Source of the DNA: Clostridia bacterium
GTDB taxonomy: Bacteria > Bacillota > Clostridia > Christensenellales > Borkfalkiaceae
DNA: 64,000 bases
Assembly (NCBI GenBank): GCA_900769545.1
Contig: CAAGGZ010000098.1
Span: 3,941 to 67,940 of the forward strand
Direction: 5' to 3'
The position numbers and the translations under genes were made by a program. The notes under the pieces are model-generated. The model worked only from the letters and a program-made list of their open reading frames with translations. It did not search any database and was not told the origin of the DNA. Below, piece by piece: positions 19,922-61,228 of this stretch. The stretch's first letter is position 1; each line of letters starts with the position of its first letter.

Positions 19922-19954
19922 AAATGCAAAATGCAAAGTGCAAAGTGCAAAATG
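19922..19954 (+). repeat. Heptamer array (4 units)
   Basis: TAAATGCAAAATGCAAAGTGCAAAGTGCAAAATG with TGCA at 19925, 19932, 19939 and 19946. Flank TTGGTAAGG. It lies directly after a terminator hairpin. Confidence 0.85.
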
Positions 19955-20052
19955 TTGGTAAGGTTTATATGAAATTAGTGTTCGGAGCAATAGTCGCTCC
20001 TGTTTAAGGGGGACTTTTTTGTATGGAAATGAAGTTTGCTTGCCGTAGAAAC

Positions 20053-20081
20053 TTGCAAAAAAAGCTCCTTTGTGGTATAAT
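20053..20081 (+). promoter_or_regulatory. Sigma-70-type promoter of pcrA (near-leaderless)
   Basis: TTGCAA, 17 nt, TATAAT preceded by TGG. The -10 ends 9 nt before the ATG at 20091, and there is no SD. Confidence 0.5.
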
Positions 20082-20090
20082 ATTTCCGTT

Positions 20091-22496
20091 ATGGCACAGA
20101 TGCAAGAATTATTGGAAAAATTAAATGACGAACAAATCAAACCCGTGTTGCAAACAGAGGGCCCTGTCCTTGTGTTGGCTGGCGCAGGGAGCGGTAAAAC
20201 ACGCGTTTTAACCTCGCGTATTGCCTATCTCGTGGAGGAAAAAGGCGTGCCTGCGGACGCAATTCTCGCCATTACCTTCACCAACAAAGCCGCCAATGAA
20301 ATGAAAGAGCGTTTGAGCGCGATTGTAGACATTTCCCGCTCCTGGGTGTGCACCATTCACAGTATGTGCGTGCGTATTTTGCGTATGTATGCCACGGAAG
20401 TGGGCATTAACCAAAATTTCTCCATTTACAGCGAGACGGAGCGCAACAATATCGTCAAAAAATCCTTCCAAGAATGTGATTTTGACGACGAAAAATTGCT
20501 CAAGAATATTAAATGGCATATCGCAAATGCGAAAATGTTAGGGCTTGAGCCTGAAAAATATGCCGAGGAATATGCCTACGAGCGTGAAATCGATGAAATT
20601 ACGAAGGTGTATACCCGTTATCAAAAGCATTTGCGTGAAAACAATTCGCTCGATTTTGACGATTTGCTCAACGAGACCCGTCGTTTGCTCAAAACGAATA
20701 AGGAAGCGAGGGAATATTTAGGGAGCAAATTCCGTTATATTCTCGTGGACGAGTTTCAAGACACCAATGCAGTGCAATATGAAATTATTCGTTATTTATC
20801 GTCTGTGCACGGCAATTTGTTTGCCGTTGGTGACGACGATCAATCCATTTACGGTTGGCGTGGGGCAAAAATAGAGAATATTTTGCACTTTGAAAAGGAC
20901 TTCAAGGACGCAAAAGTATTCAAGCTGGAGCGCAATTACCGTTCGACGAAGAACATTCTAAAACTCGCAAACACTGTTATTAAAAATAACGGCAACCGTA
21001 AGGACAAGACCCTTTGGACGGAGAACGACGAGGGCGCAGAGGGTAAGGTGCACGAAGCGGAAGAAGAGGGCGGCGAGGCGCGGTATATTGCGCAGACGAT
21101 TGCCGGGCTTATGCGCAATTACGGTTATAAATTTTCCGATTTTGCCGTGTTGATGCGACTTAACGCATTGACCCGTTCTTTCGAACAAGAGTTCACAGGG
21201 GACGGAATCCCCTATAAGGTATTCGGCGGCTTCAAGTTCTTCGAGCGTAAAGAAATCAAGGATTTGTTGGCGTATTTACGCCTTATCAATAACCCTTTTG
21301 ACAGTGAAGCGGCAATCAGAATCATCAACTTCCCCAAGCGTGGGATTGGCGCGAGAACGGTGGAAGCTTTGCAAAACTACGCCTCGGAAAACGAGCTGAC
21401 GGTATATGACGCATTGCTTGATATTGACGAAATCGGGTTCACGGGCGCAACGAGAGAGAAATTGGTCGGGTTTCGTGATTTGATTAAAAAATGGATCATC
21501 GATAGCTTGGATATGCCCATTAACGAGTTGGTAAAATCCATCGTCGAGGACACTCGTATGCGTGAAGTGTACGCCGATGAATCGGACGAAAGTATTAACA
21601 AACGCGCAAATATAGAGGAATTTATCAATTCGGTAGAGGAGTACAGCCGTTTGAACGAAGGGGCAACGCTCACCGATTATCTCAATCAAGTAACGCTCTC
21701 GTCGGACACGGACGAAATGGATGATTCCGACTATGTGACGCTCGCTACCGTACATTCGGTGAAAGGCTTGGAATACCGTTGCGTGTTCGTTTGCGGTATG
21801 GAGGAAAATATCCTGCCTGTTTCCCGCGCGGTGGATAACGACGACGATATGGAAGAAGAACGCCGTTTGATGTACGTTGCCATTACCCGAGCCAAAGAAA
21901 ATATTTATTTCACGCGCAGTAAGAGCCGTTATCTCTACGGCAAGCGTGAACCGACTATGCGTTCTCGATTCTTAAAAGAGCTTTCCTCGGAGTTAGAGCT
22001 TCCGAAAGAAGCGCCGAGAAGAGCGTTCGGATACGGTGATTACGATGACCCCGAAATGTACGGAAATTCGTCCTACGGTGGGGGCAGGTATGCGTCGAAC
22101 GATGATTATAGCGGCAGGAAGAGCAACTTTGGCAGCGGTTACAGCGGTTATGGCAGAGGGGATTCTGCGCGCTCTAATTCAGGGGTGACGCGCTCTGCGT
22201 GGAACGGCGGTTCTTCGTATGGAGCAAGCAATACAAGCCATAGCAGTACGAGCAGTCAAAAGAGCGGCGGTTTTACCTATGGCGGCATTTCACGCGCGCC
22301 GATAAAGCCCACGGCGACGTCAGGAAAGGATTTATCCGTTTTCCGTATCGGCGTAAAAGTAAAGCACCCGAAATTTGGTATTGGCACGATTGTTGGCGTT
22401 CGCGGAACGGGCGCAAATATGATTGTGGATATTGGTTTTGAGGGGGTGGGGATAAAGCAGTTGTCTGCTTCCCTTGCGCCTTTAACGGTTCTTTGA
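20091..22496 (+). CDS. pcrA: ATP-dependent DNA helicase PcrA/UvrD with Gly/Ser/Tyr-rich linker
   Basis: AGAGSGKT Walker A, DEFQDTN, YRS, VHSVKGLEY, and a C-terminal KHPKFGIGTIVGV Tudor-like tail. Confidence 0.9.
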   Translation: MAQMQELLEKLNDEQIKPVLQTEGPVLVLAGAGSGKTRVLTSRIAYLVEEKGVPADAILAITFTNKAANEMKERLSAIVDISRSWVCTIHSMCVRILRMYATEVGINQNFSIYSETERNNIVKKSFQECDFDDEKLLKNIKWHIANAKMLGLEPEKYAEEYAYEREIDEITKVYTRYQKHLRENNSLDFDDLLNETRRLLKTNKEAREYLGSKFRYILVDEFQDTNAVQYEIIRYLSSVHGNLFAVGDDDQSIYGWRGAKIENILHFEKDFKDAKVFKLERNYRSTKNILKLANTVIKNNGNRKDKTLWTENDEGAEGKVHEAEEEGGEARYIAQTIAGLMRNYGYKFSDFAVLMRLNALTRSFEQEFTGDGIPYKVFGGFKFFERKEIKDLLAYLRLINNPFDSEAAIRIINFPKRGIGARTVEALQNYASENELTVYDALLDIDEIGFTGATREKLVGFRDLIKKWIIDSLDMPINELVKSIVEDTRMREVYADESDESINKRANIEEFINSVEEYSRLNEGATLTDYLNQVTLSSDTDEMDDSDYVTLATVHSVKGLEYRCVFVCGMEENILPVSRAVDNDDDMEEERRLMYVAITRAKENIYFTRSKSRYLYGKREPTMRSRFLKELSSELELPKEAPRRAFGYGDYDDPEMYGNSSYGGGRYASNDDYSGRKSNFGSGYSGYGRGDSARSNSGVTRSAWNGGSSYGASNTSHSSTSSQKSGGFTYGGISRAPIKPTATSGKDLSVFRIGVKVKHPKFGIGTIVGVRGTGANMIVDIGFEGVGIKQLSASLAPLTVL

Positions 22497-24623
<2,127 letters not shown>

Positions 24624-24646
24624 TAAAACGAAAAGGCTTTTCAACC

Positions 24647-24765
24647 GGAAGTCAAGAAACTCAGTTTCTTGCGGAGTGCAGGGCGGAGCCTTTGCAATAA
24701 CCTCACTAAAAGCAAGCTTTGCTTGCGTTACTACTGCGTAAGCAGTCCATGGGCGAAGCCCAAAA
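24647..24765 (+). repeat. Diverged solo copy of the four-hairpin core (no heptamer arrays)
   Basis: GGAAGTCAAGAAACTCAGTTTCTTG..TGCAGGGCGGAGCCTTTGCA..GCAAGCTTTGCTTGC..ACTGCGTAAGCAGT is colinear with 42550-42655. It lies between the ligA stop and the terminator. Confidence 0.8.
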
Positions 24766-24782
24766 ACTTTCATAAAACAAAA

Positions 24783-24808
24783 ATCGCGGTTAGAGCCGCG
24801 ATTTTTTT
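24783..24808. terminator. Bidirectional intrinsic terminator (ligA / lipoprotein gene)
   Basis: ATCGCGG-TTAGAG-CCGCGAT with an A-run upstream and a T-run downstream. Confidence 0.8.
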
Positions 24809-24859
24809 AAGAGGAAAAACAAATAACTTAATTTTATTTTTCATAGTATAACCTCTTAT

Positions 24860-25450
24860 TTACGAATTTCTAACATAAACGACTAAAGTTTTGATAATTC
24901 TTGGATGGTTAAAATAGAATATTACTCCGTCAATATCTAATGTAGTAGGATAGTCTACCCCAAAAGAGAATTCCAATCCGCTTAATATTTTTAAGACGGG
25001 ATAATTATTGTAAAAGCCATAAAACCAAGTTAAATCAATATCTTTAGCTTCAATATCGGGACAAGATGTACCAGGCTGTTCGCGAAGTTCTTTTGCGCGT
25101 GCTTCTTTTATTTCGGCGGCTAATTCATCGCTTAATTTTTCATTAGGGCTACTTTGTATTCCGTTGCGAATGTCGGCAATTTTTTGAAGGTCTTCTTTGC
25201 TGATGAACCCCAGTTTATAAGCTTCTTCCAAAGTATAAAATGTCCCGAGTGTAACAATTTCTTCACTGCTTTCTACTTCACTACTTTCTTCACTGCTTTC
25301 TACTTCACTACTTTCTTCGCTACTTTCCACCGAGCTGTTTACGCTCTCCACGCTACTATCCGAAGTAGCGCCGCCGCAAGCGGAAAAAACAAGGCTGAAA
25401 ACCAATATGGCCGAAAGTAAAAGTGCCTGTAAACGTTTCATTTTTTTCAT
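24860..25450 (-). CDS. Lipoprotein with Ser/Glu-rich linker, unknown C-terminal domain
   Basis: Lipobox LVFSACGG. A 27-bp in-frame tandem repeat encodes SSEESSEVE twice. Confidence 0.65.
   Translation of the reverse strand: MKKMKRLQALLLSAILVFSLVFSACGGATSDSSVESVNSSVESSEESSEVESSEESSEVESSEEIVTLGTFYTLEEAYKLGFISKEDLQKIADIRNGIQSSPNEKLSDELAAEIKEARAKELREQPGTSCPDIEAKDIDLTWFYGFYNNYPVLKILSGLEFSFGVDYPTTLDIDGVIFYFNHPRIIKTLVVYVRNS
25269..25322 (-). repeat. In-frame tandem repeat (2 x 27 bp) encoding SSEESSEVE
   Basis: TTCTTCACTGCTTTCTACTTCACTACT appears twice, perfectly. Confidence 0.85.
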
Positions 25451-25518
25451 AATAATACCTCCTAATGGATTATCTGCTTTATATACCTATTTTTTTTGAT
25501 TATTTTTCCACTTATTTT
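25322..25518 (-). repeat. ~197-bp duplicated lipoprotein 5' cassette, copy 1
   Basis: The cassette holds upstream region, RBS, signal peptide and start of the S/E linker. It is near-identical to 25991-26187, with a few substitutions and one 1-nt indel. Confidence 0.85.
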
Positions 25519-26119: not shown

Positions 26120-26187
26120 AATAATACCTCCTAATGGATTTATCTATTTTATATACTTATTTTTTTGATTATTTTTCCACTTATTTT
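25991..26187 (-). repeat. ~197-bp duplicated lipoprotein 5' cassette, copy 2
   Basis: See copy 1. Both contain CATAATAATACCTCCTAATGGATT and TTTTTTGATTATTTTTCCACTTATTTT. Confidence 0.85.
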
Positions 26188-26355: not shown

Positions 26356-26384
26356 TTGAAATTTTAGGAAAAGTCTGCTATAAT
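26356..26384 (+). promoter_or_regulatory. Sigma-70-type promoter
   Basis: TTGAAA, 17 nt, TATAAT preceded by TGC. Confidence 0.6.
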
Positions 26385-33720: not shown

Positions 33721-33931
33721 AAGGAGTCAAGAGGCATTGCCTCTTGCGTGGTATGGAGCAGAGCTCCACAAGAAAAGCCTTACGAAAGCAAAACGTAGTT
33801 TTGCGCTATTATCACAAAGTGATGAACGCCTAAGGCGTAAAAGGCGCAACCTAAGGTTGCTTAAAAAAAAGGGGGGACTATTTAGGGGCGTTGCCCCAAA
33901 CCCCACGAGGAACTGAGTTCCTCGACCTTCC
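33721..33931 (+). repeat. ~210-bp multi-hairpin element with GTCAAG...CTCGAC inverted termini
   Basis: About 8 short hairpins with 3-nt loops. The first ~75 nt align with 63368-63440. The 3' terminal hairpin CGAGGAACTGAGTTCCTCGAC mirrors the 5' terminal module of the core family. Confidence 0.8.
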
Positions 33932-40484: not shown

Positions 40485-42491
40485 ATGAAATTATCAACGC
40501 TCCGCTCTATCGGGGAAAAGAGAGAGAAGGATTTTAATAAACTGGGTATATACGAGGTGGAAGATCTCGTCCGTTTTTATCCGCGCGCGTACTTGGATTT
40601 AACGGAGCGCGCTTCTCTGCGCACGGCTTATCATAACGATATGGTGCTTATCGCTTGCGAAGTCAACCGCGTCGTCCCCGTGAATTACGGGAATAAGCGC
40701 AAAATGGTGAAGGCGTACTGCTCGCAGGACGGATTTCCGTTTACCGTCGTATGGTTTAATCAGCCGTACGTAGCGCAGAAATTGCAGCCTGGGGAATATC
40801 TTTTTTACGGCAGAGTTCAAAACAAATTCGGACAAGTCTCCCTTGTTAATCCGACGTTTGAGGAGTTGGATAAAAATTACCGCTTAAAAGGGATTATCCC
40901 CGTGTATTCGCTTAAAGGCAATTTGAGTCAAAAAGTAGTGCGTTCGGCGGTGAAAGAAGCGTTGCAAAAAGTGGATTTAACGGGCGTTATTCCTTGGCAG
41001 ATTATTAAAAAATACGATTTACCGCCTTTAGAAAAAGCCTATTTTGACGTGCACAATCCCTCTGATGAGCGGACGAAAGATTTGGCGTCGGAGCGCATTG
41101 CGCTCGAGGAATATTTCACGCTGATTTCCGCTTTTAAAATTATAAAAGGCGGCAAAGAGGACGCAAGGGTACACCATTACAGCGTTTCCGCAGAAGAAGT
41201 GAAGAATTTTTCCACCCGTTTTGGATTTGAATTTACAAACGGTCAAAAACAGGCGGTCAATGATATTTTTACAGGTTTATATGCGCCGACGCGCATGAAC
41301 CGCTTAATTCAAGGCGACGTAGGTAGCGGTAAAACCGCCGTTGCGTTGTGCGGTATGTTTATGGCGGTAAGGAGCGGTTTTACAGCGGCGTATCTGTCAC
41401 CGACAGAAGTGCTCGCAGCGCAGAACTATGCGCTTTTGAAACGCTATTTTCCCGAATACGAGGTAGGGTATCTCGCAGGGGGAATGACGGCGAAAGAAAA
41501 ACGGGAGCTGAAAGCTCGACTTAAAAACGGCGAAATCGATATTCTTTGCGGTACGCACGCAATTTTCCAAGGCGACGTGGAGATTCCCAAACTTTCCTTT
41601 ATTGTCTGCGACGAACAGCACCGTTTCGGCGTAGCGCAAAGAAACGCGCTTGCGGAAAAGGGCGCGGGCGTGGATATGCTGGTTATGAGCGCAACGCCCA
41701 TACCTCGTACCTTGTCGTTGATTTTTTACGGGGATTTGGACGTTACCACCATTACGGATAAACCCAAAGCCCGTCAGGAAATCTCGACGAGTATTATTCC
41801 CGAATCCAAGTACGACGATATGCTCGAATATGTCAAAAAGGAAACGGCGGCAGGCAAACAGGCGTACTTTGTTTGCGCCAAGATAGACGATGACGAAGAG
41901 GGCTCTATTATGAGCGTGACGGAGCTCCACGAGGAATTAAAAACACGCCTTCCGAGCGTTAAATTCGGGCTTTTACACGGCAGAATGAAGGACAAGGAAA
42001 AGGCGGAAATTATGGCGGCGTTCAAGGCGAAAGAATACGATTGCTTGGTTTCGACGACGGTTATTGAGGTCGGCGTGGACGTACCGAACGCAACCATTAT
42101 GATTATTTATAATGCGGAGCGTTTCGGGCTCTCGCAGTTGCATCAGCTCCGAGGCAGAGTCGGCAGAGGCGCAGAAAAGAGTTATTGCTTCCTGCTTATG
42201 GGGGCGGACGGCGATACGGCAAGAGAGCGTCTTTTGACGCTGAAAAACAACACCGACGGCTTTAAAATAGCGGAAAAGGATTTGGAAATGCGAGGCAGTG
42301 GCGACTTTTTCGGTACTCGTCAATCGGGCAAAGTATTGACGGATATTAAAAATCTCCGTTATCCCACGCAGGTTATTTTTGCGGCGAAAAAGCTCTCTGA
42401 CGACGCCTTTGAAGGTCGGTTTGACGATGAAAAATTACGTTTTGCGGCGTTGAAGAAGTATAATAGTTTGAAAGACGTTGTAATGAATTAA
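40485..42491 (+). CDS. recG: ATP-dependent DNA helicase RecG
   Basis: GDVGSGKT, CDEQHRFG, SATPIPRT and QLRGRVGRG motifs. Confidence 0.92.
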   Translation: MKLSTLRSIGEKREKDFNKLGIYEVEDLVRFYPRAYLDLTERASLRTAYHNDMVLIACEVNRVVPVNYGNKRKMVKAYCSQDGFPFTVVWFNQPYVAQKLQPGEYLFYGRVQNKFGQVSLVNPTFEELDKNYRLKGIIPVYSLKGNLSQKVVRSAVKEALQKVDLTGVIPWQIIKKYDLPPLEKAYFDVHNPSDERTKDLASERIALEEYFTLISAFKIIKGGKEDARVHHYSVSAEEVKNFSTRFGFEFTNGQKQAVNDIFTGLYAPTRMNRLIQGDVGSGKTAVALCGMFMAVRSGFTAAYLSPTEVLAAQNYALLKRYFPEYEVGYLAGGMTAKEKRELKARLKNGEIDILCGTHAIFQGDVEIPKLSFIVCDEQHRFGVAQRNALAEKGAGVDMLVMSATPIPRTLSLIFYGDLDVTTITDKPKARQEISTSIIPESKYDDMLEYVKKETAAGKQAYFVCAKIDDDEEGSIMSVTELHEELKTRLPSVKFGLLHGRMKDKEKAEIMAAFKAKEYDCLVSTTVIEVGVDVPNATIMIIYNAERFGLSQLHQLRGRVGRGAEKSYCFLLMGADGDTARERLLTLKNNTDGFKIAEKDLEMRGSGDFFGTRQSGKVLTDIKNLRYPTQVIFAAKKLSDDAFEGRFDDEKLRFAALKKYNSLKDVVMN

Positions 42492-42504
42492 AAGCCGCAT
42501 TTCT

Positions 42505-42690
42505 AAATGCAAAATGCATAATGCAAAGTGCAAAATGAAGGTAGGATGGGAAGTCAAGGAACTGAGTTCCTTGTCAGGGTGCAGGGGCGGAAGCCCTTGC
42601 AGGAGTAGCCCAAAATAAGCAAGCTATGCTTGCGTCACTACTGCGTAGCAGTCGATAAAAATGCAAAATGCATAATGCAAAATGCAAAAT
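42505..42690 (+). repeat. Composite element: heptamer array, four-hairpin core, heptamer array
   Basis: Arrays at 42505-42537 and 42658-42690 (4 units each) flank the core at 42538-42657. The core is near-identical to 61075-61197. Confidence 0.9.
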
Positions 42691-42720
42691 TATGGAAAAA
42701 TTAAAAAGGCTTTATTGCTT

Positions 42721-42753
42721 GGCTCCCTTGTGTAAAGGGAGCTGACTTTTTTT
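42721..42753 (+). terminator. Intrinsic terminator downstream of recG and the composite element
   Basis: GGCTCCCTT-GTGTA-AAGGGAGC followed by TGACTTTTTTT. Confidence 0.7.
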
Positions 42754-42825
42754 GTAGAAAAAAGGCTGAGGGATTGTTAAAAAGCTGACTCGCCGCGGCT
42801 TTTGTCTTATATTTTTTTAAAACTA

Positions 42826-42854
42826 TTGACAATGCAGACAAAAAGTGATAAAAT
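42826..42854 (+). promoter_or_regulatory. Sigma-70-type promoter, ~215 nt upstream of the LRR gene start
   Basis: TTGACA, 17 nt, TAAAAT preceded by TGA. Confidence 0.55.
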
Positions 42855-43070
42855 AAAACTGCGACATAATTTCATAAAAATCTCAAAAAGGCATATACTT
42901 CTTTGGTGGAAGTGTATCTTTTTCGCGTTACAAAAAACCTTTTTGGGATTGGTAATAGAAATTGTGTCGCAACAAAAGCGGAAAGGACATTTTTACAGGT
43001 GTCGTTCCCTTTTGTGGATCGACACTTTTCTTATTTAAAAGGAAAAATAAAACCAAGGAGGCATTATAAA

Positions 43071-44993
43071 GTGAAAAGTGTAAAAAGATTTTTAATTGGC
43101 GCATTGGCAATGCTAGTCTCTTGCGCAGGTTTTGCGGCTTGTGGTGGTGCAGGTGAAAGCTCTTTATCGAGTTCGGAGAAAGCAAGCTCGGTAGAAGAAG
43201 TTTCATCAGAAGAAAGTAATTCGACGGTGGATATTTCTTCGGAAGAGCATAGTAGTTCGGAAGAGCATAGTAGTTCGGAAGAAGAGAGCAGTTCGGTAGA
43301 GGAAAGTTCTTCTAAAGAAGACAGTTCGGTGGAAGAACATATACATAACTATGAATTGACGGGTAAAACGTCTGTTACTTGTACGGAAGATGGACAGATG
43401 GTGTATACTTGTAAATGTGGGGATAGTTATACAGAGACGGTTGCTGCTTGGGGACACGATTACATAAACGATGAATGTATCTACTGTGGTAAAAAACCAA
43501 GTGAAGGCTTGGAGTATGAATTAAGTGGAATGACGTATTCAGTAGTGGGCATCGGCTCGTGTACGGATACCGATTTGGTAATTCCTTTTACTCATAATAA
43601 TTTACCTGTGACGAGCATTGGTGATGGTGCGTTCGCCTATTGTGACAGTTTGACGAGTGTGGTAATTTCCGACAGTGTGACGAGTATTGGCGACGAGGCA
43701 TTCGTTTATTGTGAGAATTTAACGAGCTTGAAAATCGGCAACAGTGTGACATGTATTGGTGATGGTGCGTTCTATCAATGTAGCAGTTTGACGAGCGTTG
43801 TAATTCCCGATAGCGTGACGAGTATTGAGTGGGGGGCGTTTGCTCACTGTGGAGAATTGACAAGCGTGGAGATTCCCAACGGTGTGACAAGTATTGATGG
43901 TGCTACGTTCGCTGATTGTGACAGTTTGACGAGTGTGATGATTCCTAACAGTGTGACAAGTATTGATAATGAGGCGTTCGCCTATTGTGACAGTTTGACG
44001 AGTGTGGTGATTCCCAACAGTGTGACAAGTATTGATGATAGTGCGTTCGCCTATTGTGACAGTTTGACGAAGATAGAAGTAGACGAAAATAACAGCGTAT
44101 ACAAATCTATAGACGGCGATTTGTATACAAAAGACGGCGCAACGTTGATACAATATGCCATAGGGAAAACAGCAACGTCCTTTACAATTCCCGACAGTGT
44201 AACAAGTATTGGTGTTTGGGCGTTCTTTGGTTGTAGTTTGACGAGCATAGAAGTATCGGAAAATAACAGTGCATATAAATCTATAGAAGGCAATTTGTAT
44301 ACAAAAGATGGCGCAACGTTGATACAATATGCCATAGGGAAAACAGCAACGTCTTTTACAACCCCTGACAGCGTGACGAGTATTGAGTGGTTTGCGTTCG
44401 CCTATTGTGATAGTTTGACGAGTGTGGTAATTGGCGACAGTGTGGTAAGTATTGGTTATTATGCGTTCGCCTATTGTGATAGTTTGACGAGTGTGGTAAT
44501 TGGCGACAGTGTGATAAGTATCGGAGCTTGTGCGTTCTATTATTGCGACAGTTTGACGGGCATAGAAATATCGGAAAATAACAGCGTATATAAATCGATA
44601 GACGGCAATGTATATACAAAAGACGGCGCAACGTTGATACAATACGCCATAGGGAAAACGGCAAGCTTGTTCATTATTCCTGACAGTGTGACGAGTATTG
44701 ATTATGAGGCGTTTTCTTCTTGTAGCAGTTTGACGAGCGTGGTGATTAGCGACAGTGTGACAAGTATTGCTGATAGTGCGTTCGCTGACTGTAAAGAATT
44801 GACAAGCGTGGTGATGTCCGACAGTGTGACGAGTATTGGATATGCGGTGTTTTTTTCTTGTAGCAGTTTGACAAGTATTACCTTTAGCGGTACAGTCGAA
44901 CAATGGAAGGCGATTGAGAAAGATGATGATTGGAATATTGGCGTTCCTGCGACAGAAGTGGTTTGCAAGGACGGAAAAGTTGCGCTTAAATAA
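43071..44993 (+). CDS. BspA-type leucine-rich-repeat (LRR_5-like) lipoprotein with N-terminal His/Cys modules
   Basis: GTG start 9 nt after aaggagg. Lipobox LVSCAGFAAC, then an SSEE linker and HIHNY..CTEDG..CKCG and GHDY..CIYCG modules. About 20 repeats of (I/V)PxSVTSIGxxAFxxCxSLTS follow. Confidence 0.8.
   Translation: MKSVKRFLIGALAMLVSCAGFAACGGAGESSLSSSEKASSVEEVSSEESNSTVDISSEEHSSSEEHSSSEEESSSVEESSSKEDSSVEEHIHNYELTGKTSVTCTEDGQMVYTCKCGDSYTETVAAWGHDYINDECIYCGKKPSEGLEYELSGMTYSVVGIGSCTDTDLVIPFTHNNLPVTSIGDGAFAYCDSLTSVVISDSVTSIGDEAFVYCENLTSLKIGNSVTCIGDGAFYQCSSLTSVVIPDSVTSIEWGAFAHCGELTSVEIPNGVTSIDGATFADCDSLTSVMIPNSVTSIDNEAFAYCDSLTSVVIPNSVTSIDDSAFAYCDSLTKIEVDENNSVYKSIDGDLYTKDGATLIQYAIGKTATSFTIPDSVTSIGVWAFFGCSLTSIEVSENNSAYKSIEGNLYTKDGATLIQYAIGKTATSFTTPDSVTSIEWFAFAYCDSLTSVVIGDSVVSIGYYAFAYCDSLTSVVIGDSVISIGACAFYYCDSLTGIEISENNSVYKSIDGNVYTKDGATLIQYAIGKTASLFIIPDSVTSIDYEAFSSCSSLTSVVISDSVTSIADSAFADCKELTSVVMSDSVTSIGYAVFFSCSSLTSITFSGTVEQWKAIEKDDDWNIGVPATEVVCKDGKVALK
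43239..43310 (+). repeat. In-frame 18-bp tandem repeat (4 units, 2 perfect) encoding SEEHSS-type linker
   Basis: TCGGAAGAGCATAGTAGT appears twice, followed by two diverged units. Confidence 0.8.
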
Positions 44994-45022
44994 ATGCAAA
45001 ATGCGAAGTGCGAAATTGTGGA
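44991..45022 (+). repeat. Heptamer array (3 units)
   Basis: TAAATGCAAAATGCGAAGTGCGAAATTGTGG. Its first TAA is the stop codon of the LRR gene. Confidence 0.8.
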
Positions 45023-45079
45023 ATAATACGCGATTAAAAGCTCGTTCGTGAAAATTTCAAGAAAATTTTCTCAAGGCTA

Positions 45080-45108
45080 TTGACGAATGCAAAAAAATAT
45101 AGTATAAT
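45080..45108 (+). promoter_or_regulatory. Sigma-70-type promoter of hisIE
   Basis: TTGACG, 17 nt, TATAAT. Confidence 0.6.
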
Positions 45109-55619: not shown

Positions 55620-55716
55620 ATTATGCAAAAGTGACAAAATATACAGAAGTTTATACATTTATGCAGAATATACACAAAATATTCAAAAAACTTGAAAAAT
55701 AAAGGCGTAAAATAAT

Positions 55717-55745
55717 TTGACAAACGGAAAATATGGGTGTATAAT
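55717..55745 (+). promoter_or_regulatory. Sigma-70-type promoter of argG
   Basis: TTGACA, 17 nt, TATAAT with TG upstream. Confidence 0.65.
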
Positions 55746-55746
55746 G

Positions 55747-55783
55747 ATTGCATAAATCAAAAATTATTCAATATTTATGCAAA
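55747..55783 (+). promoter_or_regulatory. ARG-box-like operator candidates
   Basis: ATTGCATAAATCAAAAAT and ATTCAATATTTATGCAAA each match one half well against the WNTGMATAWWWATKCANW-type consensus recalled from ArgR/AhrC literature. Confidence 0.35.
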
Positions 55784-55811
55784 AATTCATCTTGAAAGGA
55801 GACATAGAATT

Positions 55812-57035: not shown

Positions 57036-57134
57036 AACGACGTATGTACGTCGCATTTCTACGTTGCTGTTCGGTTACATACTAACGGTATGCGCCCTCA
57101 CAGCGCCTTGAACTGCTCGTATCTCCGCCGTTTT
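57036..57134. repeat. Intergenic sequence related to 22497-22679
   Basis: CGACGTATGTACGTCG hairpin and GCGCCTTGAACTGCTCGTATCTC. It is followed by a heptamer array. Confidence 0.45.
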
Positions 57135-57165
57135 AAGTGCGAAATGCGAAGTGCGAAATTGTGGC
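57135..57165 (+). repeat. Heptamer array (3 units)
   Basis: AAGTGCGAAATGCGAAGTGCGAAATTGTGG. Confidence 0.8.
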
Positions 57166-57263
57166 AGAGTTTTTTTAAATAAAGCTACAACGTCGGCAAA
57201 GTTGCCAATTTGCGATTGACAAAGTCAATCAATTCACATATCAGTCATTGTACGGAGAAAAAT

Positions 57264-57299
57264 TTGCCTATCGCAGCCGCGATAGGCAAGCGTGTTTTT
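57264..57299 (+). terminator. Terminator-like hairpin 6 nt upstream of the argH start
   Basis: 11-bp stem TTGCCTATCGC-AGCC-GCGATAGGCAA followed by GCGTGTTTTT. Confidence 0.6.
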
Positions 57300-57304
57300 A
57301 GATT

Positions 57305-58684
57305 ATGGAAAAAATGTGGGCAGGGCGGTTTCAAAAAGCCCTGGATAAAAAAGCAGACGATTTTAATTCTTCCCTGCGTTTTGATTTCAGAATGTACGCG
57401 CAGGATATAAAAGGCTCGATGGCGCACGCGGCAATGCTCGCAAAACAAGGCATTGTTCCCGAAAAGGACGTCGATTTGATATTGGACGGGTTAGAAGGTA
57501 TCCTTGCCGATTTAGAGGCAGGGAAGCTCACCTTTGACGACAACGCCGAAGATATTCACATGTATGTCGAGGCGGAGCTCACCAAACGTATCGGGGAAGC
57601 AGGCAAAAAGCTGCACACCGCGCGTAGCCGTAACGACCAAGTAGCGGTGGATATTCGTTTATATCTTCGAGATAAAGCTGCGGAAGTGGTGGAGCTTGTC
57701 AAAACCCTTCTTTCCGTTGTGGTAGATAAAGCGGAAGAAACCGCAGACGTGATTGCGCCCGGGTACACGCATTTACAACGCGCGCAACCCATTTCGTTTG
57801 GGCATCAGTTGATGGCGTATGCGATGATGCTGCTCCGTGATATGGGCAGAATCAAGGACGCCGTAAAGCGTATGAACGTTTCGCCTTTGGGAAGCTGCGC
57901 TTTGGCTGGAACGACCTATCCCACGGACAGAGCGTTCGTGGCGGAAAAGCTCGGGTTTGACGGCGTTATGCAAAATAGTATCGATGGGGTTTCCGACCGC
58001 GATTTTTGCGTGGAGCTGATGAGCGCGTTTGCAATCCTTATGATGCACCTGTCGAGATTTTCCGAGGAAATTATTTTGTGGTCGAGTTGGGAGTTCAAGT
58101 TTATCGAGCTTGACGATTCCTACACTACGGGCTCGTCCATTATGCCGCAAAAGAAAAACCCTGACATGGCGGAGCTTGTCCGCGGTAAAACGGGTAGAGT
58201 ATACGGAAATTTAATGGCGCTTTTGACGACGCTCAAAGGCTTGCCGCTCGCATACAATAAGGACATGCAAGAGGACAAGGAGGCGATTTTCGATTCGTTA
58301 GACACGGTGATTATGTGTTTGGAAGTGTTTGCGCCTATGGTTGCGACGATGAAAGTGAATGCGGACATTACGTATAAAGCGGCGCAGAAAGGCTTTATCA
58401 ACGCCACCGATTTGGCGGATTATCTGACGAAAAAGGGCGTGCCGTTCCGTGTTGCGTATAAGGCGGTGGGGCAAATTGTGGCTGAGTGTATCGAAAAGGG
58501 CTGTGTTTTGGACGAATATCCCTTGGCGGAATACAAAAAACACAGCGACGTTTTTGAAGAAGATTTATATGAAGAAATCTCTCTTGAAACTTGCGTAAAC
58601 AAGCGTTTAAGCGAGGGCGGAGCTTCTCCTTCGTCTGTGAGAAAACAGGTGGAATGGGTGAGGAAGGAAATGCAAAATGCATAA
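57305..58684 (+). CDS. argH: Argininosuccinate lyase
   Basis: MWAGRF and GSSIMPQKKNPD signature. The start could be the ATG at 57314. The last 5 codons and the stop lie inside a heptamer array. Confidence 0.9.
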   Translation: MEKMWAGRFQKALDKKADDFNSSLRFDFRMYAQDIKGSMAHAAMLAKQGIVPEKDVDLILDGLEGILADLEAGKLTFDDNAEDIHMYVEAELTKRIGEAGKKLHTARSRNDQVAVDIRLYLRDKAAEVVELVKTLLSVVVDKAEETADVIAPGYTHLQRAQPISFGHQLMAYAMMLLRDMGRIKDAVKRMNVSPLGSCALAGTTYPTDRAFVAEKLGFDGVMQNSIDGVSDRDFCVELMSAFAILMMHLSRFSEEIILWSSWEFKFIELDDSYTTGSSIMPQKKNPDMAELVRGKTGRVYGNLMALLTTLKGLPLAYNKDMQEDKEAIFDSLDTVIMCLEVFAPMVATMKVNADITYKAAQKGFINATDLADYLTKKGVPFRVAYKAVGQIVAECIEKGCVLDEYPLAEYKKHSDVFEEDLYEEISLETCVNKRLSEGGASPSSVRKQVEWVRKEMQNA

Positions 58685-58705
58685 TGCAAAATGCAAAATT
58701 GAGGA
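58668..58705 (+). repeat. Heptamer array (4 units) overlapping the argH 3' end
   Basis: AAATGCAAAATGCATAATGCAAAATGCAAAATTGAGG. It encodes ..MQNA and the TAA stop of argH. Confidence 0.85.
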
Positions 58706-58741
58706 AGAATTAGAGAGCGTTTTAAACAACGTGGAGAAAAT

Positions 58742-59668
58742 ATGAAAAAAGTATTTATTGACGGCAGCGCAGGGACAACGGGCTTGCGGATATACGAAAG
58801 ACTTTCCAAAAGAGAGGACGTTGCATTACTGCTCCTGTCAGAGGAAAAAAGAAAAGATATTTCGGCGAGAAAGGAAATGCTCAATCGCGCGGACGTGGCG
58901 TTTTTATGTCTGCCCGACGATGCGGCAAGGGAAGCGGTAACGCTCGTCGAAAACCCCGAAACGGTGATAATCGACGCCTCCACGGCGCATAGAACGTTGT
59001 CCGATTGGGCGTATGGCTTTCCGGAGCTTTCCAAAGCCCATGAAGGACGGATATTGAGCTCTAAAAGAATAGCAAACCCCGGCTGTCATGCCAGCGGCTT
59101 TATTGCGCTTACTTATCCGCTTGTGGAAGCAGGGCTGTTGAAGAAAGACGCTTTGCTTACCTGTCATTCGATTACGGGTTATTCGGGCGGCGGTAAAAAA
59201 ATGATTACCGAATACGAAACGGAGAGCCGTAATTTGTTATTGGGCGCGCCCCGTCAGTACGGGCTTTCGCAACAGCATAAGCATTTAAAAGAAATGCAAG
59301 CCATCGTTGGCTTGGAAGTTGCGCCTATGTTTTCGCCTATCGTGGCAGATTTTTACAGCGGTATGACAGTGACGGTGCCTTTGTTTAAACAGCAGATAAA
59401 CGGCTCGATAGAGGACGTAAAAGCGGTGCTCAAGCAAAAATACAACGGCGAGATTGTCAGTTATGTCGAAAGTGTGGACGAGGACGGATTTATTTCCGGG
59501 CTTGCGTTATCGGGGAAGGACAGTATGAAAATTACCGTATGCGGCAACGCAGAGCGAATTTTACTCATAGCGGCGTATGACAACCTTGGCAAAGGCGCAA
59601 GCGGCGCGGCGGTGGAATGTATGAATATGGTCATCGGCGCGGATACAAAAGCAGGGCTGATTTTGTAA
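58742..59668 (+). CDS. argC: N-acetyl-gamma-glutamyl-phosphate reductase (short form)
   Basis: IANPGCHASG active-site Cys. 308 aa. Confidence 0.85.
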   Translation: MKKVFIDGSAGTTGLRIYERLSKREDVALLLLSEEKRKDISARKEMLNRADVAFLCLPDDAAREAVTLVENPETVIIDASTAHRTLSDWAYGFPELSKAHEGRILSSKRIANPGCHASGFIALTYPLVEAGLLKKDALLTCHSITGYSGGGKKMITEYETESRNLLLGAPRQYGLSQQHKHLKEMQAIVGLEVAPMFSPIVADFYSGMTVTVPLFKQQINGSIEDVKAVLKQKYNGEIVSYVESVDEDGFISGLALSGKDSMKITVCGNAERILLIAAYDNLGKGASGAAVECMNMVIGADTKAGLIL

Positions 59669-59716
59669 ATGCAAAATGCAAAATGCAAAATGCAAAATGC
59701 GAAATGAAGGTAGGAT
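59666..59716 (+). repeat. Heptamer array (5 units)
   Basis: TAAATGCAAAATGCAAAATGCAAAATGCAAAATGCGAAATGAAGGTAGGAT. Its first TAA is the argC stop. The flank is identical to 42536-42547. Confidence 0.85.
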
Positions 59717-59802
59717 TTTTAAAATTCAGCCATAACGGCGATGAAATCAACAATGTGCGAAACCAAAGGTTTCTATAATTCACATACAAAAAAGGAAAAA
59801 AT

Positions 59803-61017
59803 ATGTTAAAACAAATTCAGGGCGGCGTTTGCGCCGCAAAAGGCTTTACCGCAAACGGCGTACACTGCGGTATTCGTAAAAATAAAACCAAGCGCGATTT
59901 GGCGCTTATTTACAGCGAAGTTCCTGCAAGCGCGGCGGCGGTGTATACCAAAAACCTCGTGAAAGGCGCTCCGCTTACCGTTACCAAAAACAATATTGCG
60001 GACGGCAAAGCGCAGGCGATTATTTGCAACAGCGGCAACGCCAACACCTGCAATGCCAACGGTATCGAGATTGCGGAAACGACTTGCGCGATTCTTGGCA
60101 AGGCGCTCCGTTTAAAAGCCACCGACGTGGTTGTTGCTTCTACGGGCGTCATTGGTCAGCCTTTGGATATTACTCCCATTCAAAACGGAATCCCTGCCCT
60201 CGTAGAGGGCTTGGGCGCGCACAGTAATCTTGCGTGCGAGGGGATTATGACGACGGACATGAAACCCAAAGAAATCGCCTTTGAGTTTACGGTAGACGGC
60301 AAAGTTTGCCATATCGGCGGTATCGCGAAAGGGAGCGGTATGATTCATCCCAATATGGCGACGATGCTCGTGTTTGTTACCACCGATTGCGCGGTTGCGC
60401 CTCAGGCTCTTCAAAAGGCGTTGTCCAAGGACGTAGAGGACTCGTTTAATATGGTCAGCATTGACGGCGACACGTCCACCAACGATATGGTGACGGTGCT
60501 TGCAAACGGTTTGGCTGGGAATAAGGAGCTCACTGAAACAGACGAAGAATTTGCGATTTTCACGGCGGCGTTGAACGCCGTAACGACCTACCTTTGCAGA
60601 TTGATTGCAGGGGACGGCGAGGGCGCGACAAAGCTCCTTGAGTGTAAAGTCGAGGGGGGCAGGGATGCGTTGACGGCGAAAATTGTCGCAAAATCGGTTA
60701 TTTGTTCCTCGCTTTTTAAAGCGGCTATGTTCGGCGCGGACGCAAACTGGGGACGCGTACTTTGCGCAATCGGGTATTCGGGCGCAGACGTGGACGTGAA
60801 TAAGGTCGGCGTGAGCTTCCGCTCTGCAAAAGGAAGTATCACGGTTTGTGAAAACGGAGCAGGCATACCTTTCTCGGAAGAAAAAGCCAAAGAGATATTA
60901 TTGGAAAGCGAAATCGAAATTTTAATCACGCTCGGTGACGGCGACGGAACAGCGACCGCTTGGGGTTGTGATTTGACGTATGATTATGTAAAGATTAACG
61001 GCGACTATCGAACTTAA
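59803..61017 (+). CDS. argJ: Bifunctional ornithine acetyltransferase / N-acetylglutamate synthase
   Basis: GMIHPNMATMLVF contains the autoprocessing site. 404 aa. Confidence 0.9.
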   Translation: MLKQIQGGVCAAKGFTANGVHCGIRKNKTKRDLALIYSEVPASAAAVYTKNLVKGAPLTVTKNNIADGKAQAIICNSGNANTCNANGIEIAETTCAILGKALRLKATDVVVASTGVIGQPLDITPIQNGIPALVEGLGAHSNLACEGIMTTDMKPKEIAFEFTVDGKVCHIGGIAKGSGMIHPNMATMLVFVTTDCAVAPQALQKALSKDVEDSFNMVSIDGDTSTNDMVTVLANGLAGNKELTETDEEFAIFTAALNAVTTYLCRLIAGDGEGATKLLECKVEGGRDALTAKIVAKSVICSSLFKAAMFGADANWGRVLCAIGYSGADVDVNKVGVSFRSAKGSITVCENGAGIPFSEEKAKEILLESEIEILITLGDGDGTATAWGCDLTYDYVKINGDYRT

Positions 61018-61042
61018 TACGACGGCTTGTCGTATTAAGTTT
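61013..61042 (+). terminator. Hairpin overlapping the argJ stop
   Basis: CTTAATACGAC-GGCTT-GTCGTATTAAG followed by only TTT. A heptamer array follows. Confidence 0.45.
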
Positions 61043-61043
61043 G

Positions 61044-61228
61044 AAATGCAAAATGCAAAGTGCAAAATGCAAAATTGTGGAAGGATAGGAAGTCAAGGAA
61101 CTCAGTTCCTTGTCAGGGTGCAGGGGCGGAAGCCCTTGCAATAGTAGCCCTTCCAAAAGCAAGCTATGCTTGCGCTACTACTGCGCAGCAGCGATAAAAA
61201 TGCAAAGTGCAAAATGCAAAATGCGAAA
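61044..61228 (+). repeat. Composite element: heptamer array, four-hairpin core, heptamer array
   Basis: Arrays at 61044-61074 and 61198-61228. Core hairpins are AAGGAACTCAGTTCCTT, TGCAGGGGCGGAAGCCCTTGCA, GCAAGCTATGCTTGC and CTGCGCAGCAG. Confidence 0.9.

What the first reader, a model, noticed from the sequence alone, without database searches (positions are those of the whole stretch)
19922..61228. Dispersed tandem 7-bp arrays, (TGCRWAR)3-5, at 11 sites, usually on or just after stop codons
Eleven arrays of a 7-bp unit (TGCAAAA, TGCAAAG, TGCATAA, TGCGAAA, TGCGAAG) occur in the window.
- Sites: 2489, 19922, 42505, 42658, 44991, 57135, 58668, 59666, 61044, 61198, plus the flank copies.
- Ten of them share one orientation, which is co-directional with the flanking + strand genes. 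Only the copy at 2489-2523 is inverted.
- They share a conserved entry, TAAATGCAAAATGC, and a conserved exit, AAWTGWGGWAGGAT-like (TTGTGGAAGGATAGG, TGAAGGTAGGAT, TTGAGGAAG, TTGTGGAAT).
- In three cases the array supplies the stop codon of the upstream gene: the LRR gene at 44991, argC at 59666, and argH at 58682. For argH the last five codons (EMQNA) are also array sequence.
- Copy number and unit sequence vary between sites, as expected from slippage.
- TGCA is itself palindromic. A 7-bp period is not helical phasing and does not fit any operator or CRISPR geometry I know.
I do not recognise this as a described repeat family.
Basis: seen in the sequence. Interest (0 to 1): 0.75.

Follow-up and report, generated by a model that had tools for sequence, protein, structure and literature searches.

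The report
Dispersed heptad-repeat modules after stop codons
The 7-base arrays are real copies of a short, fast-changing intergenic repeat (about four TGCRWAR units plus a G-rich tail) that recently spread just downstream of genes in one gut Clostridia lineage; it is a new family of an already known kind of bacterial repeat, and its function is unproven.

Summary
The arrays are real. The window holds nine strict (TGCRWAR)3-5 arrays on the + strand and one decayed inverted copy, against 0 expected by chance. They recur in independent assemblies of the same and sister species.

They are not a new kind of object. Dispersed intergenic heptanucleotide tandem repeats (LSSR/STRR, TAACTGA, GGGAATC) have long been described, and heptad operators exist. 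This TGCRWAR family matches no Rfam model, and the one paper holding one of the four array strings searched is unrelated (cyclic-peptide design).

Each copy is a module of usually four heptads plus a T-K-R-W-G-G tail. The modules join with hairpin modules into mosaics (array-core-array). The family is lineage-specific:
- Relatives with ArgC about 80% identical, or HisIE 91-92% identical, have none.
- 558 kb of more distant arg loci have none.

The arrays change fast. Strains differ at 5 positions inside one array while the flanks are identical. Unit number differs (2 versus 4). A hairpin core is present or absent inside an array. Arrays flank a strain-variable BspA-LRR gene.

The tail's Shine-Dalgarno likeness failed a scrambled control.

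Best reading: a proliferating intergenic repeat module resembling Neisseria intergenic mosaic elements (NIMEs). A dedicated binding partner is not excluded.

The parts
2480..2523 (-). Decayed inverted heptad module. On the - strand it reads TGCAAAA TGCTAAA TGCAAGC GCAAAAT plus the tail TTATGGAAGAAT. It lies between two + strand genes.
19925..19966 (+). Solo module of 4 heptads (19925-19952) plus the tail TGTTGGTAAGGTTT. It lies 3 nt after an intrinsic-terminator-like hairpin that follows ORF 19469-19894, upstream of pcrA.
42508..42701 (+). Composite mosaic after the recG stop (42491). It consists of array 42508-42535 (4 units), tail TGAAGGTAGGAT, four-hairpin core 42548-42661, array 42662-42689 (4 units) and tail TTATGGAAAAAT. 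A terminator-like hairpin plus T-run follows at 42719-42745.
44991..45027 (+). Solo module at the BspA-LRR gene stop. It consists of the TAA stop in the lead-in, array 44995-45015 (3 units) and tail TTGTGGAATAAT. It lies 65 nt upstream of the hisIE promoter-like site at 45080-45108. Together with the composite at 42508-42701 it brackets the strain-variable LRR cassette.
57036..57137 (+). Module 'C', a 100-nt long-hairpin repeat directly after the argG stop and directly upstream of array 57138. Copies lie at L199 8345-8443 and at L200 8027-8126 and 13330-13428.
57138..57170 (+). Solo module in the argG-argH spacer: 3 heptads (TGCGAAA TGCGAAG TGCGAAA) plus the tail TTGTGGCAGAGT. It is absent at the orthologous site of L199.
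58671..58710 (+). Solo module overlapping the argH 3' end: 4 heptads plus the tail TTGAGGAAGAAT. The argH stop is the TAA of unit 2. L199 has 2 units here and L205 has 4 different units.
59666..59716 (+). Solo module at the argC stop: TAA, 5 heptads (59670-59704) and the tail TGAAGGTAGGAT. Strains L203/L204 differ at 5 positions inside the array with identical flanks. L199 has 4 units + core + 1 unit here.
61047..61240 (+). Composite mosaic in the argJ-argB spacer. It consists of array 61047-61074 (4 units), tail TTGTGGAAGGAT, core 61087-61200, array 61201-61228 (4 units) and a weak tail TATACAGGTTGA.
24647..24752 (+). Older core copy (about 80% identity) after the ligA stop, with no flanking arrays.
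63372..63576 (.). Inverted pair of diverged cores (63372-63459 on +, 63493-63576 on -) after the argD stop. The pair is conserved in L199.
33724..33929 (.). A second pair of diverged cores. The + copy was identified by eye and by alignment (33724-33835). The - copy (33843-33929) was found by nhmmer.

Best explanation
The arrays are copies of a short interspersed repeat module: usually four TGCRWAR heptads (28 nt) with an A-rich lead-in and a G-rich T-K-R-W-G-G tail. The module belongs to the known class of dispersed heptanucleotide tandem repeats.

**Shown**
- In this gut Clostridia lineage the module recently colonised spacers that were short and repeat-free in relatives.
- It sits mostly directly after stop codons, in the sense orientation.
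- It is joined to hairpin modules (a four-hairpin core and a 100-nt module 'C') to form mosaic intergenic elements.
- The family is confined to a narrow clade.
- Units turn over quickly at fixed sites.
- A core is gained or lost inside an array.
- Arrays and tails lie at the junctions of strain-level rearrangements, including presence or absence of a BspA-LRR surface-protein gene.
- The link to stop codons and the co-orientation with the upstream gene replicate in other Firmicutes.

**Inferred**
- Copies change by replication slippage and by unequal or ectopic recombination between arrays.
- The module is carried passively in 3' UTRs and intercistronic RNA as an unstructured A-rich spacer.
- It persists because that position is tolerated, not because it regulates the flanking genes.
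- Its main biological effect is to make these spacers recombination-prone, as Neisseria intergenic mosaic elements do.
For: **Real, and denser than chance**
- The window holds 10 arrays in 64 kb against 0 in shuffles.

**Lineage-specific**
- 558 kb of arg loci with ArgC 58-69% identical hold no arrays.
- L200-202 (ArgC 80%) hold none.
- L422-424 (HisIE 91-92%, 44 kb) hold none.
- L199 (ArgC 94%) and L205 (91%) do hold arrays.

**The spacers were once empty**
- The argC-argJ spacer is 10-30 nt in relatives, 135 nt in the window and 272 nt in L199.
- ArgH ends ...VRKLL* in L200 and ...VRKEMQNA* in the window.

**Fast turnover**
- Window versus L203/L204: 5 changes inside the 35-nt argC array, 0 changes in about 130 nt of flanks, same unit number.
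- The argH-end array has 4 units in the window and 2 in L199.
- L199 carries decayed units such as TACAAAA and TTCAAAA.

**Mosaic structure and rearrangement**
- Array-core-array composites lie at 42508-42689 and 61047-61228.
- At the argC stop, L199 has 4 units + core + 1 unit where the window has 5 units.
- At the recG-hisIE locus, strains L418, L419 and L420 differ by LRR gene presence, an inverted terminator, and a deletion between two TTGTGGAA tails.
- Contigs break at arrays: L204 starts in one and L205 ends in one.

**Cores are an independent family**
- Cores also occur in the array-free relative L200.
- They are structured: 10 of 23 pairs show compensatory changes.

**Generic heptamer background**
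- In viral contigs, TGCRWARx4 gives 47 stretches. Three control heptamer patterns give 37, 77 and 53.

**The class is known**
- PMC4679880 and PMC4692102.
- The NIME analogy rests on PMC1797815.
Against: **Features that plain slippage or neutral drift does not predict**
- Array length peaks at four units, with none of two units in the window.
- Unit order is stereotyped within lineages (Dialister, several Clostridia MAGs, rumen/gut viral contigs).
- A conserved tail occurs across Firmicutes genera.
- Variation is restricted to unit positions 4, 5 and 7.
- Unit number was preserved despite 5 changes between strains.
- Arrays are strongly co-oriented with the upstream gene. In 3 of 5 inverted pairs examined (L028b and L052 from Dialister, L001 from an Eubacteriales MAG), each convergent gene has its own array.

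These features point to specific recognition by some machinery, or to copying from a master element.

**Gaps**
- No dispersal mechanism has been identified.
- No transcript data were available.
- No whole-genome census of this species was possible.
Confidence: 0.5

Rival explanations
1. The module is a transcript-level cis element. (UGCRWAR)4 plus the G-rich tail, placed right after the stop codon, would be read in the mRNA by an RNA-binding protein with a 7-nt register, or by the terminating ribosome or 30S subunit. Its effect could be on re-initiation, on processing or stability of the downstream cistron, or on keeping downstream hairpins away from the stop codon.
For: - A co-oriented ORF ends at the array in 28 of 56 independent arrays, against 7 of 56 in the mirror orientation.
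- In 3 of 5 inverted pairs examined (L028b and L052 from Dialister, L001 from an Eubacteriales MAG), each convergent gene has its own sense-oriented array.
- Arrays are commonly followed by a tail and then a GC hairpin or terminator.
- Array length is quantised at about 4 units.
- The 14 nt after arrays pair with the anti-SD better than background does.
- Non-initiating SD-like stabilisers are known in Firmicutes (STAB-SD, PMC4113751).
Against: - The SD-likeness is not specific. 37 of 200 scrambled anti-SD sequences pair as well or better, because the tail is simply G-rich and C-poor.
- Sister species lack the arrays at the same operon junctions. No conserved function of these genes therefore depends on them.
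- Copies decay by point mutation.
- Some arrays lie in the antisense orientation, or directly upstream of start codons in either orientation.
- No candidate binding protein was identified.
Confidence: 0.2
2. The heptad array is the recognition site of a dedicated DNA enzyme, either a site-specific recombinase or phage integrase (as proposed for dRS3 in NIMEs) or a trans-acting transposase. Array-core-array would then be an integrated or copied unit, and solo arrays would be empty sites or footprints.
For: - Young cores (at least 88% identical) at three different loci always lie between two direct arrays.
- At the same site, L199 has the composite and the window has a solo array, with 4+1 = 5 units.
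- Left and right arrays of a composite resemble each other.
- Stereotyped four-unit copies recur in several Firmicutes genera and in gut viral contigs.
- Arrays bracket a strain-variable gene cassette.
- dRS3 offers a precedent (PMC1797815).
Against: - No recombinase or transposase was found next to arrays.
- The only Y1 transposase (RAYT) seen, in L013, has its own unrelated REPs. It has no homolog in the window or in the other loci.
- The terminal repeats are direct, not inverted, and no target-site duplication can be defined.
- Older cores and the cores of L200 lack arrays.
- Slippage and homologous recombination between arrays can produce the same patterns.
Confidence: 0.15
3. The arrays are double-stranded DNA heptad operators for a cooperative DNA-binding protein. 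Candidates are a ribbon-helix-helix protein like omega of pSM19035, a ToxT/H-NS-type regulator, or a nucleoid protein. They would act on neighbouring promoters or on chromosome organisation.
For: - Contiguous heptads are proven protein-binding arrays elsewhere (PMC9499535; 10.1101/2021.05.14.444153).
- Unit positions 1-3 and 6 are invariant.
- Array 44995 lies 65 nt upstream of a good promoter-like site.
Against: - Distances to downstream starts and promoters are inconsistent, ranging from 43 to more than 300 nt.
- Position is tied to the upstream stop codon and to the sense strand, which double-stranded DNA operators do not need.
- The flanking genes are unrelated in function (arg, recG, pcrA, LRR).
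- Sister species lack the arrays.
Confidence: 0.05
4. The arrays are ordinary microsatellites that arose independently at each site by slippage from A-rich proto-repeats near TAA stops, with no family relationship between copies.
For: - Heptamer arrays of any comparable unit are about equally common in viral contigs.
- The ancestral spacers were A-rich. Near the argH stop, L200 carries AAAATTGC, which resembles a unit.
- Unit-number polymorphism is observed.
Against: - Lead-in, unit repertoire, four-unit mode and tail are shared between copies.
- The same unit order recurs at many loci of one genome, for example Dialister UBA734.
- The window has no 2-unit arrays.
- No other heptamer family exists in this window.
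Confidence: 0.05

Closest known systems
Heptanucleotide long simple sequence repeats (LSSR; Mrazek 2007) and the cyanobacterial STRR, TAACTGA and GGGAATC/GGGGAYT repeat families
   Same: - Head-to-tail 7-nt units, usually 2-6 copies, at many dispersed and mostly intergenic sites.
- Sporadic, lineage-specific phylogenetic distribution.
- Length and sequence vary between close relatives.
- Function is unresolved.
- Sources: PMC4679880 and PMC4692102.
   Different: - The unit is TGCRWAR and the host is a gut Clostridia.
- Copies are quantised at about four units.
- Copies have a defined G-rich tail.
- Copies sit at or after stop codons in the sense orientation, whereas TAACTGA repeats sit just upstream of start codons.
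- Copies are combined with hairpin modules into mosaics.
Neisserial intergenic mosaic elements (NIME: 20-bp dRS3 repeats flanking 50-150-bp RS modules)
   Same: - A short repeat flanks hairpin or other roughly 100-nt repeat modules in intergenic arrays.
- Arrays at syntenic sites differ in repeat number and content between strains.
- Arrays are associated with a variable surface-protein gene, here a BspA-type LRR protein.
- Source: PMC1797815, compared.
   Different: - The junction repeat is a tandem heptad array in direct orientation, not a 20-bp inverted repeat.
- No recombinase or phage is known to target it.
- The host phylum is different. NIMEs were reported as specific to Neisseria.
REP/BIME elements of Enterobacteria and REPINs with RAYT transposases
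   Same: - Short interspersed intergenic repeats concentrated downstream of genes.
- They are transcribed with the upstream gene.
- They form mosaic clusters.
- Each species has its own consensus.
   Different: - The heptad array is not a palindrome and cannot form a stable hairpin on its own.
- It has no GTAG-type head.
- No RAYT is encoded in the window.
- The accompanying four-hairpin core is the REP-like part, not the array.
Heptad operators (omega/ParB of pSM19035; TTTTGAT repeats of the V. cholerae ctxAB promoter)
   Same: Contiguous 7-bp units in arrays of 3-10, with function depending on copy number (PMC9499535; 10.1101/2021.05.14.444153).
   Different: - Those arrays are single-locus promoter or centromere sites with a known binding protein.
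- Here there are many chromosomal copies, positioned by the upstream stop codon.

Membership tests
Dispersed heptanucleotide tandem repeats (LSSR class) | Head-to-tail copies of a 7-nt unit, longer than chance allows | tested here: met
   TRF finds period 7 with 2.7-5.7 copies. The window has 17 overlapping pattern matches against 0 in 100 shuffles.
Dispersed heptanucleotide tandem repeats (LSSR class) | Many dispersed, mainly intergenic sites in one genome | tested here: met
   The window holds 10 sites in 64 kb. All are intergenic or overlap the last codons of a gene. Only this window was tested, not the whole genome.
Dispersed heptanucleotide tandem repeats (LSSR class) | Unit-number or sequence polymorphism between close relatives | tested here: met
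   The argH-end array has 4 units in the window and 2 in L199. The argC array differs at 5 positions between strains.
Dispersed heptanucleotide tandem repeats (LSSR class) | Sporadic, lineage-specific distribution | tested here: met
   Absent from relatives at 58-92% protein identity. Present in scattered other lineages.
Cyanobacterial STRR in the strict sense | One of the three specific tandem heptanucleotides reported for Calothrix PCC 7601, in heterocystous cyanobacteria (PMC4692102; from my own recollection, not from any tool result, the units are CCCCAGT, TTGGTCA and CAACAGT) | tested here: not met
   The unit is TGCRWAR. The nearest named relatives are Clostridia / Acutalibacteraceae MAGs.
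REP / REPIN | Imperfect palindrome forming a hairpin | tested here: not met
   The array has no self-complementarity beyond TGCA. Folding pairs only UGCA:UGCA between two separate arrays.
REP / REPIN | Cognate RAYT (Y1 transposase) in the genome | tested here: inconclusive
   tblastn with the L013 RAYT finds nothing in the window. The rest of the genome was not available.
NIME | dRS3 consensus ATTCCC-N8-GGGAAT as the junction repeat | tested here: not met
   The junction repeat here is (TGCRWAR)n. The definition is taken from PMC1797815.
NIME | Short repeats flanking 50-150-bp modules in dynamic intergenic arrays near variable surface-protein genes | tested here: met
   Array-core-array composites. 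Strain variants occur at recG-LRR-hisIE and at argC-argJ.
MITE | Terminal inverted repeats and a target-site duplication | tested here: not met
   The composite has direct terminal arrays, and no target-site duplication can be defined. Dialister arrays do occur as inverted pairs, but the DNA between them is not a conserved unit.
CRISPR array | Repeats of 23-47 nt separated by unique spacers of similar length | tested here: not met
   The units are contiguous 7-nt repeats with no spacers.
Any Rfam RNA family | Score at or above the family's gathering threshold | tested here: not met
   The whole window gave 0 matches. A permissive scan of 42400-42950 gave only matches with E of 1 or more, far below the gathering scores.
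Phase-variable contingency locus | Repeat tract inside an ORF, or between promoter elements, so that unit changes switch expression | tested here: not met
   Arrays lie after stop codons. Only the last 4-5 codons of argH are array-encoded, and they stay in frame to a stop in all relatives.
Heptad operator (omega-type) | Specific cooperative binding by a cognate protein | not testable with these tools
   This needs EMSA or ChIP. Position relative to promoters is inconsistent.

The most novel reading that the evidence does not exclude
The four-heptad module with its G-rich tail may be the recognition site of dedicated, still unknown machinery that is shared and horizontally spread among gut Firmicutes (Oscillospirales-like Clostridia and Dialister) and that also occurs on gut and rumen viral contigs. 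The machinery could be a recombinase or integrase that shuffles hairpin modules and gene cassettes at heptad arrays, which would be a NIME-like system outside Neisseria. Alternatively it could be an RNA-binding factor that reads (UGCRWAR)4 right after stop codons. Either would explain the quantised length, the stereotyped unit order, the tail and the sense-strand coupling.
Probability: 0.15. Interest if true: 0.7.

Novelty: new member of a known kind. Interest (0 to 1): 0.4.

Why it matters
Heptanucleotide repeats are reported as the most abundant long simple-repeat class in prokaryotes, and their role has been open since 1990. This family offers an unusually tractable case:
- The module is short and quantised, with a defined tail.
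- It shows a clear link to stop codons and to the sense strand.
- Sister species lack it.
- Strain-level variants show it at the junctions of rearrangements, including gain or loss of a BspA-type surface-protein gene.

If the arrays promote recombination, or are read by a specific factor, they would be a driver of strain diversity in abundant but uncultured gut Clostridia. They also have a practical consequence: they break short-read assemblies and MAG contigs.

Tried and rejected
**1. One cross-phylum family: rejected as unsupported.**
- Three control heptamer patterns are as frequent as TGCRWAR in viral contigs: 37, 77 and 53 against 47 stretches.
- Non-Firmicutes arrays lack the tail.

**2. 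The tail as a Shine-Dalgarno or STAB-SD sequence: rejected as specific evidence.**
- The tail is enriched against background.
- However, 37 of 200 scrambled anti-SD sequences pair as well or better.

**3. Link to a RAYT Y1 transposase: rejected.**
- A RAYT sits next to the L013 array.
- Its REPs are unrelated to the heptads. No homolog exists in the window or in the other loci.

**4. Known RNA family: none**.

**5. Conservation at orthologous arg loci of family-level relatives: none** in 558 kb.

**6. The array as a translational enhancer just upstream of start codons (the TAACTGA model).**
- Only 7 of 56 arrays have a start within 80 nt.
- In the window, the distances I measured from array end to the next start are 43-213 nt.

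**7. Arginine-specific regulator site: rejected.**
- Arrays also follow recG, an LRR gene and the ORF upstream of pcrA.

**8. Ideas set aside on sequence mismatch, from memory only.**
- Spo0A 0A box.
- Haemophilus uptake sequence.
- Chi or FtsK-orienting sequences.
- dif sites.

**9. Source genome.**
- Exact look-up of the window's ArgC, and of the nearest protein P0001, failed.
- The source genome could therefore not be retrieved for a full census.

Full report
**Observation**

The pattern (TGCRWAR)3 matches 17 overlapping positions in the window. All are on the + strand, and 100 dinucleotide-preserving shuffles gave 0 matches. Tandem Repeats Finder reports the same sites with period 7.

The matches collapse into nine arrays: 19925-19952, 42508-42535, 42662-42689, 44995-45015, 57138-57158, 58671-58698, 59670-59704, 61047-61074 and 61201-61228. 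They hold 3, 3, 4, 4, 4, 4, 4, 4 and 5 units, and none holds exactly two. A decayed inverted copy lies at 2494-2521. The total is ten arrays, not eleven.

Only unit positions 4, 5 and 7 vary. Every array is preceded by AAA or AAG. Every array is followed by a G-rich tail of the form T-K-R-W-G-G-W-A-R-R-A-T.

**Gene context**

Pfam assigns the flanking genes as follows:
- argG | array | argH | array | argC | array | argJ | array-core-array | argB-argD
- recG | array-core-array | BspA-type LRR gene | array | hisIE
- an unassigned ORF and its terminator | array | pcrA

The stop codons of the LRR gene and of argC abut the first unit. The argH stop is the TAA of the second unit, so the last residues EMQNA are array-encoded.

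The + strand is both the coding strand and, by GC skew of +0.11 to +0.19, the leading strand. Orientation therefore cannot be interpreted from the window alone.

**The arrays are one module of larger mosaics**

Two pairs of arrays flank a conserved element of about 114 nt. The two composites align end to end, and the two cores are about 89% identical.

This core has four hairpins. Ten of its 23 predicted pairs show compensatory changes across 11 copies.

Older core copies without arrays lie at 24647-24752. Inverted pairs of diverged cores lie at 63372/63576 and 33724/33929.

A third repeat, a 100-nt long hairpin that I call module 'C', sits between the argG stop and array 57138. It recurs in relatives.

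Rfam has no match for any of these elements.

**Distribution**

This does not show one family, for two reasons:
- In viral contigs, three control heptamer patterns of similar composition are as frequent as TGCRWAR: 37, 77 and 53 stretches against 47.
- Arrays outside Firmicutes lack the tail.

This agrees with the literature. Heptanucleotide repeats are reported as the most abundant long simple-repeat class in most prokaryotic genomes studied, and their distribution is sporadic (Mrazek 2007 as summarised in PMC4679880 and PMC4692102).

Within gut Firmicutes a more specific pattern appears: four units in a lineage-typical order, then T-K-R-W-G-G, then usually a GC-rich hairpin.
- Dialister: TGCGTAA-TGCGAAG-TGCGTAG-TGCGTAA
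- several Clostridia MAGs: TGCAAAA-TGCAAAG-TGCAAAA-TGCAAAA
- rumen and gut viral contigs: TGCAAAA-TGCATAA-TGCATAA-TGCAAAA

These are documented.

**Age and dynamics**

The family is confined to a narrow clade.
- Eighty metagenomic arg loci with ArgC 58-69% identical (558 kb) contain no array.
- Relatives with ArgC 80% identical (L200-202) contain none.
- Relatives with HisIE 91-92% identical (L422-424) contain none.
- L199 (ArgC 94%) and L205 (91%) do contain arrays.

In array-free relatives the argC-argJ spacer is only 10-30 nt. It is 135 nt in the window and 272 nt in L199. ArgH ends ...VRKLL* in L200 and ...VRKEMQNA* in the window. The modules therefore invaded formerly compact operon junctions.

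Orthologous arrays change fast:
- At the argH end, the window has 4 units and L199 has 2.
- At the argC stop, the window has 5 units and L199 has 4 units + core + 1 unit.
- L199 carries decayed units such as TACAAAA and TTCAAAA.
- Strains L203 and L204, whose flanks are identical over about 130 nt, differ from the window at five positions inside the 35-nt argC array. The unit number is the same.

At the recG-hisIE locus, strains with identical HisIE differ in three ways:
- presence of the LRR gene
- an inverted terminator
- a deletion between two TTGTGGAA tails

Arrays or tails lie at each of these junctions. Contigs of independent assemblies also begin or end in arrays.

I examined 56 non-redundant Firmicutes-type arrays from other genomes and viral contigs.
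- A co-oriented open frame of at least 100 codons ends between 60 nt upstream of the array and 22 nt inside it in 28 cases.
- The mirror orientation gives 7 cases (paired 26:5, binomial p=2e-4; Wilcoxon p=2e-5).

In 3 of 5 inverted array pairs examined (L028b and L052 from Dialister, L001 from an Eubacteriales MAG), each of two convergent genes carries its own sense-oriented array. The bias therefore follows the gene rather than the replichore. The gene calls used here are crude open-frame heuristics.

**Function**

The tail pairs with the 16S anti-Shine-Dalgarno sequence better than background does. Scrambled anti-SD sequences do almost as well, with 37 of 200 equal or better. The tail is therefore best described as G-rich and C-poor. 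A STAB-SD-type role (PMC4113751) is not supported.

Distances to downstream starts and promoters are inconsistent. A RAYT transposase next to one array in L013 has its own unrelated REPs and no homolog in the window.

**Interpretation**

The best-supported reading is as follows. The arrays are a young, proliferating family of short interspersed heptad modules. They are a new member of the known class of dispersed heptanucleotide repeats. They combine with hairpin modules into mosaic intergenic elements and change by slippage and recombination.

They work most like Neisseria intergenic mosaic elements. In NIMEs, short repeats flank roughly 100-nt modules, the arrays differ between strains, and the arrays lie next to variable surface-protein genes (PMC1797815). 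The arrays here do not meet the sequence definition of a NIME.

Several features remain unexplained: the four-unit mode, the stereotyped unit order, the tail and the sense-strand coupling. They leave room for a dedicated partner, either an RNA-binding factor acting after the stop codon or a recombinase acting at the heptads. I could not test either possibility.

**Limits**

- The source genome could not be retrieved, so there is no whole-genome census.
- No transcript data were available.
- The control scans used viral contigs, not bacterial genomes.

Noticed in passing
window 42548-42661, 61087-61200, 24647-24752, 63372-63459(+)/63493-63576(-), 33724-33835(+)/33843-33929(-); L199 10971-11085 and 12605-12712; L200 8149-8261, 8299-8410 and 13452-13541: A family of four-hairpin intergenic repeats of about 110 nt (the 'core') lies right after stop codons. 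Ten of 23 predicted pairs show compensatory changes. Some copies form inverted pairs, as REPINs do. The family is also present in an array-free relative and has no Rfam match.
   Followed up: partly
window 57036-57137; L199 8345-8443; L200 8027-8126 and 13330-13428: A third repeat module (about 100 nt, a long imperfect hairpin running AAAACGACG...CGCCGTTTT) lies directly after the argG stop. In L200 a second copy follows argB.
   Followed up: partly
window 42903-44993 versus L418 3640-5388, L420, L422 and L424: The BspA-type leucine-rich-repeat gene between recG and hisIE varies between strains. It encodes 696 aa in the window and 582 aa in L418. It is absent in strain L420 and in the sister species L422 and L424. 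Heptad arrays bracket it.
   Followed up: partly
L013 about 200-860 (- strand): An IS200-like Y1 transposase (RAYT-type, 181 aa, HIHLL motif) sits between argG and argH of an Acutalibacteraceae MAG. It is flanked by GTAGGGACACGGCGTGCCGTGTCC REP hairpins and lies about 70 nt from a heptad array. The REPs are unrelated to the heptads.
   Followed up: yes
window 55620-55745, 57215-57235, 59775-59795, 61295-61310: AT-rich repeated motifs (TATACA repeats upstream of argG, and AATTCAC upstream of argH, argJ and argB) look like ARG-box or promoter elements in front of individual arg genes. This suggests the operon junctions were rebuilt into separate regulatory regions after the repeats expanded the spacers.
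   Followed up: no
L028 about 300-390 and 4270-4360; L010 about 1745-1800; L052 about 5430-5530: Dialister spacers that carry TGCGTAA-type arrays also carry other heptamer arrays, such as (RGCAGTW)n and (TAGCTNN)n, arranged as inverted repeats between convergent genes.
   Followed up: no
L204 position 1; L205 3' end; L419 5' end: Short-read metagenome contigs of this species start or stop inside heptad arrays or mosaic modules. The repeats therefore fragment assemblies and MAGs.
   Followed up: no
window 4195-4329 and 25258-25327: There are in-frame tandem repeats with periods of 45 nt and 27 nt (Ser/Glu-rich and similar). The one at 4195-4329 lies in + strand ORF 3979-4785. The one at 25258-25327 lies in - strand ORF 24860-25450. 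Both are unrelated to the heptads.
   Followed up: no
L117 about 2700-2790 and 4520-4610: In an uncultured rumen bacterium, a (TGCATAA)4 array is followed by telomere-like GGTTAGG/GGTTAGT heptamer runs.
   Followed up: no
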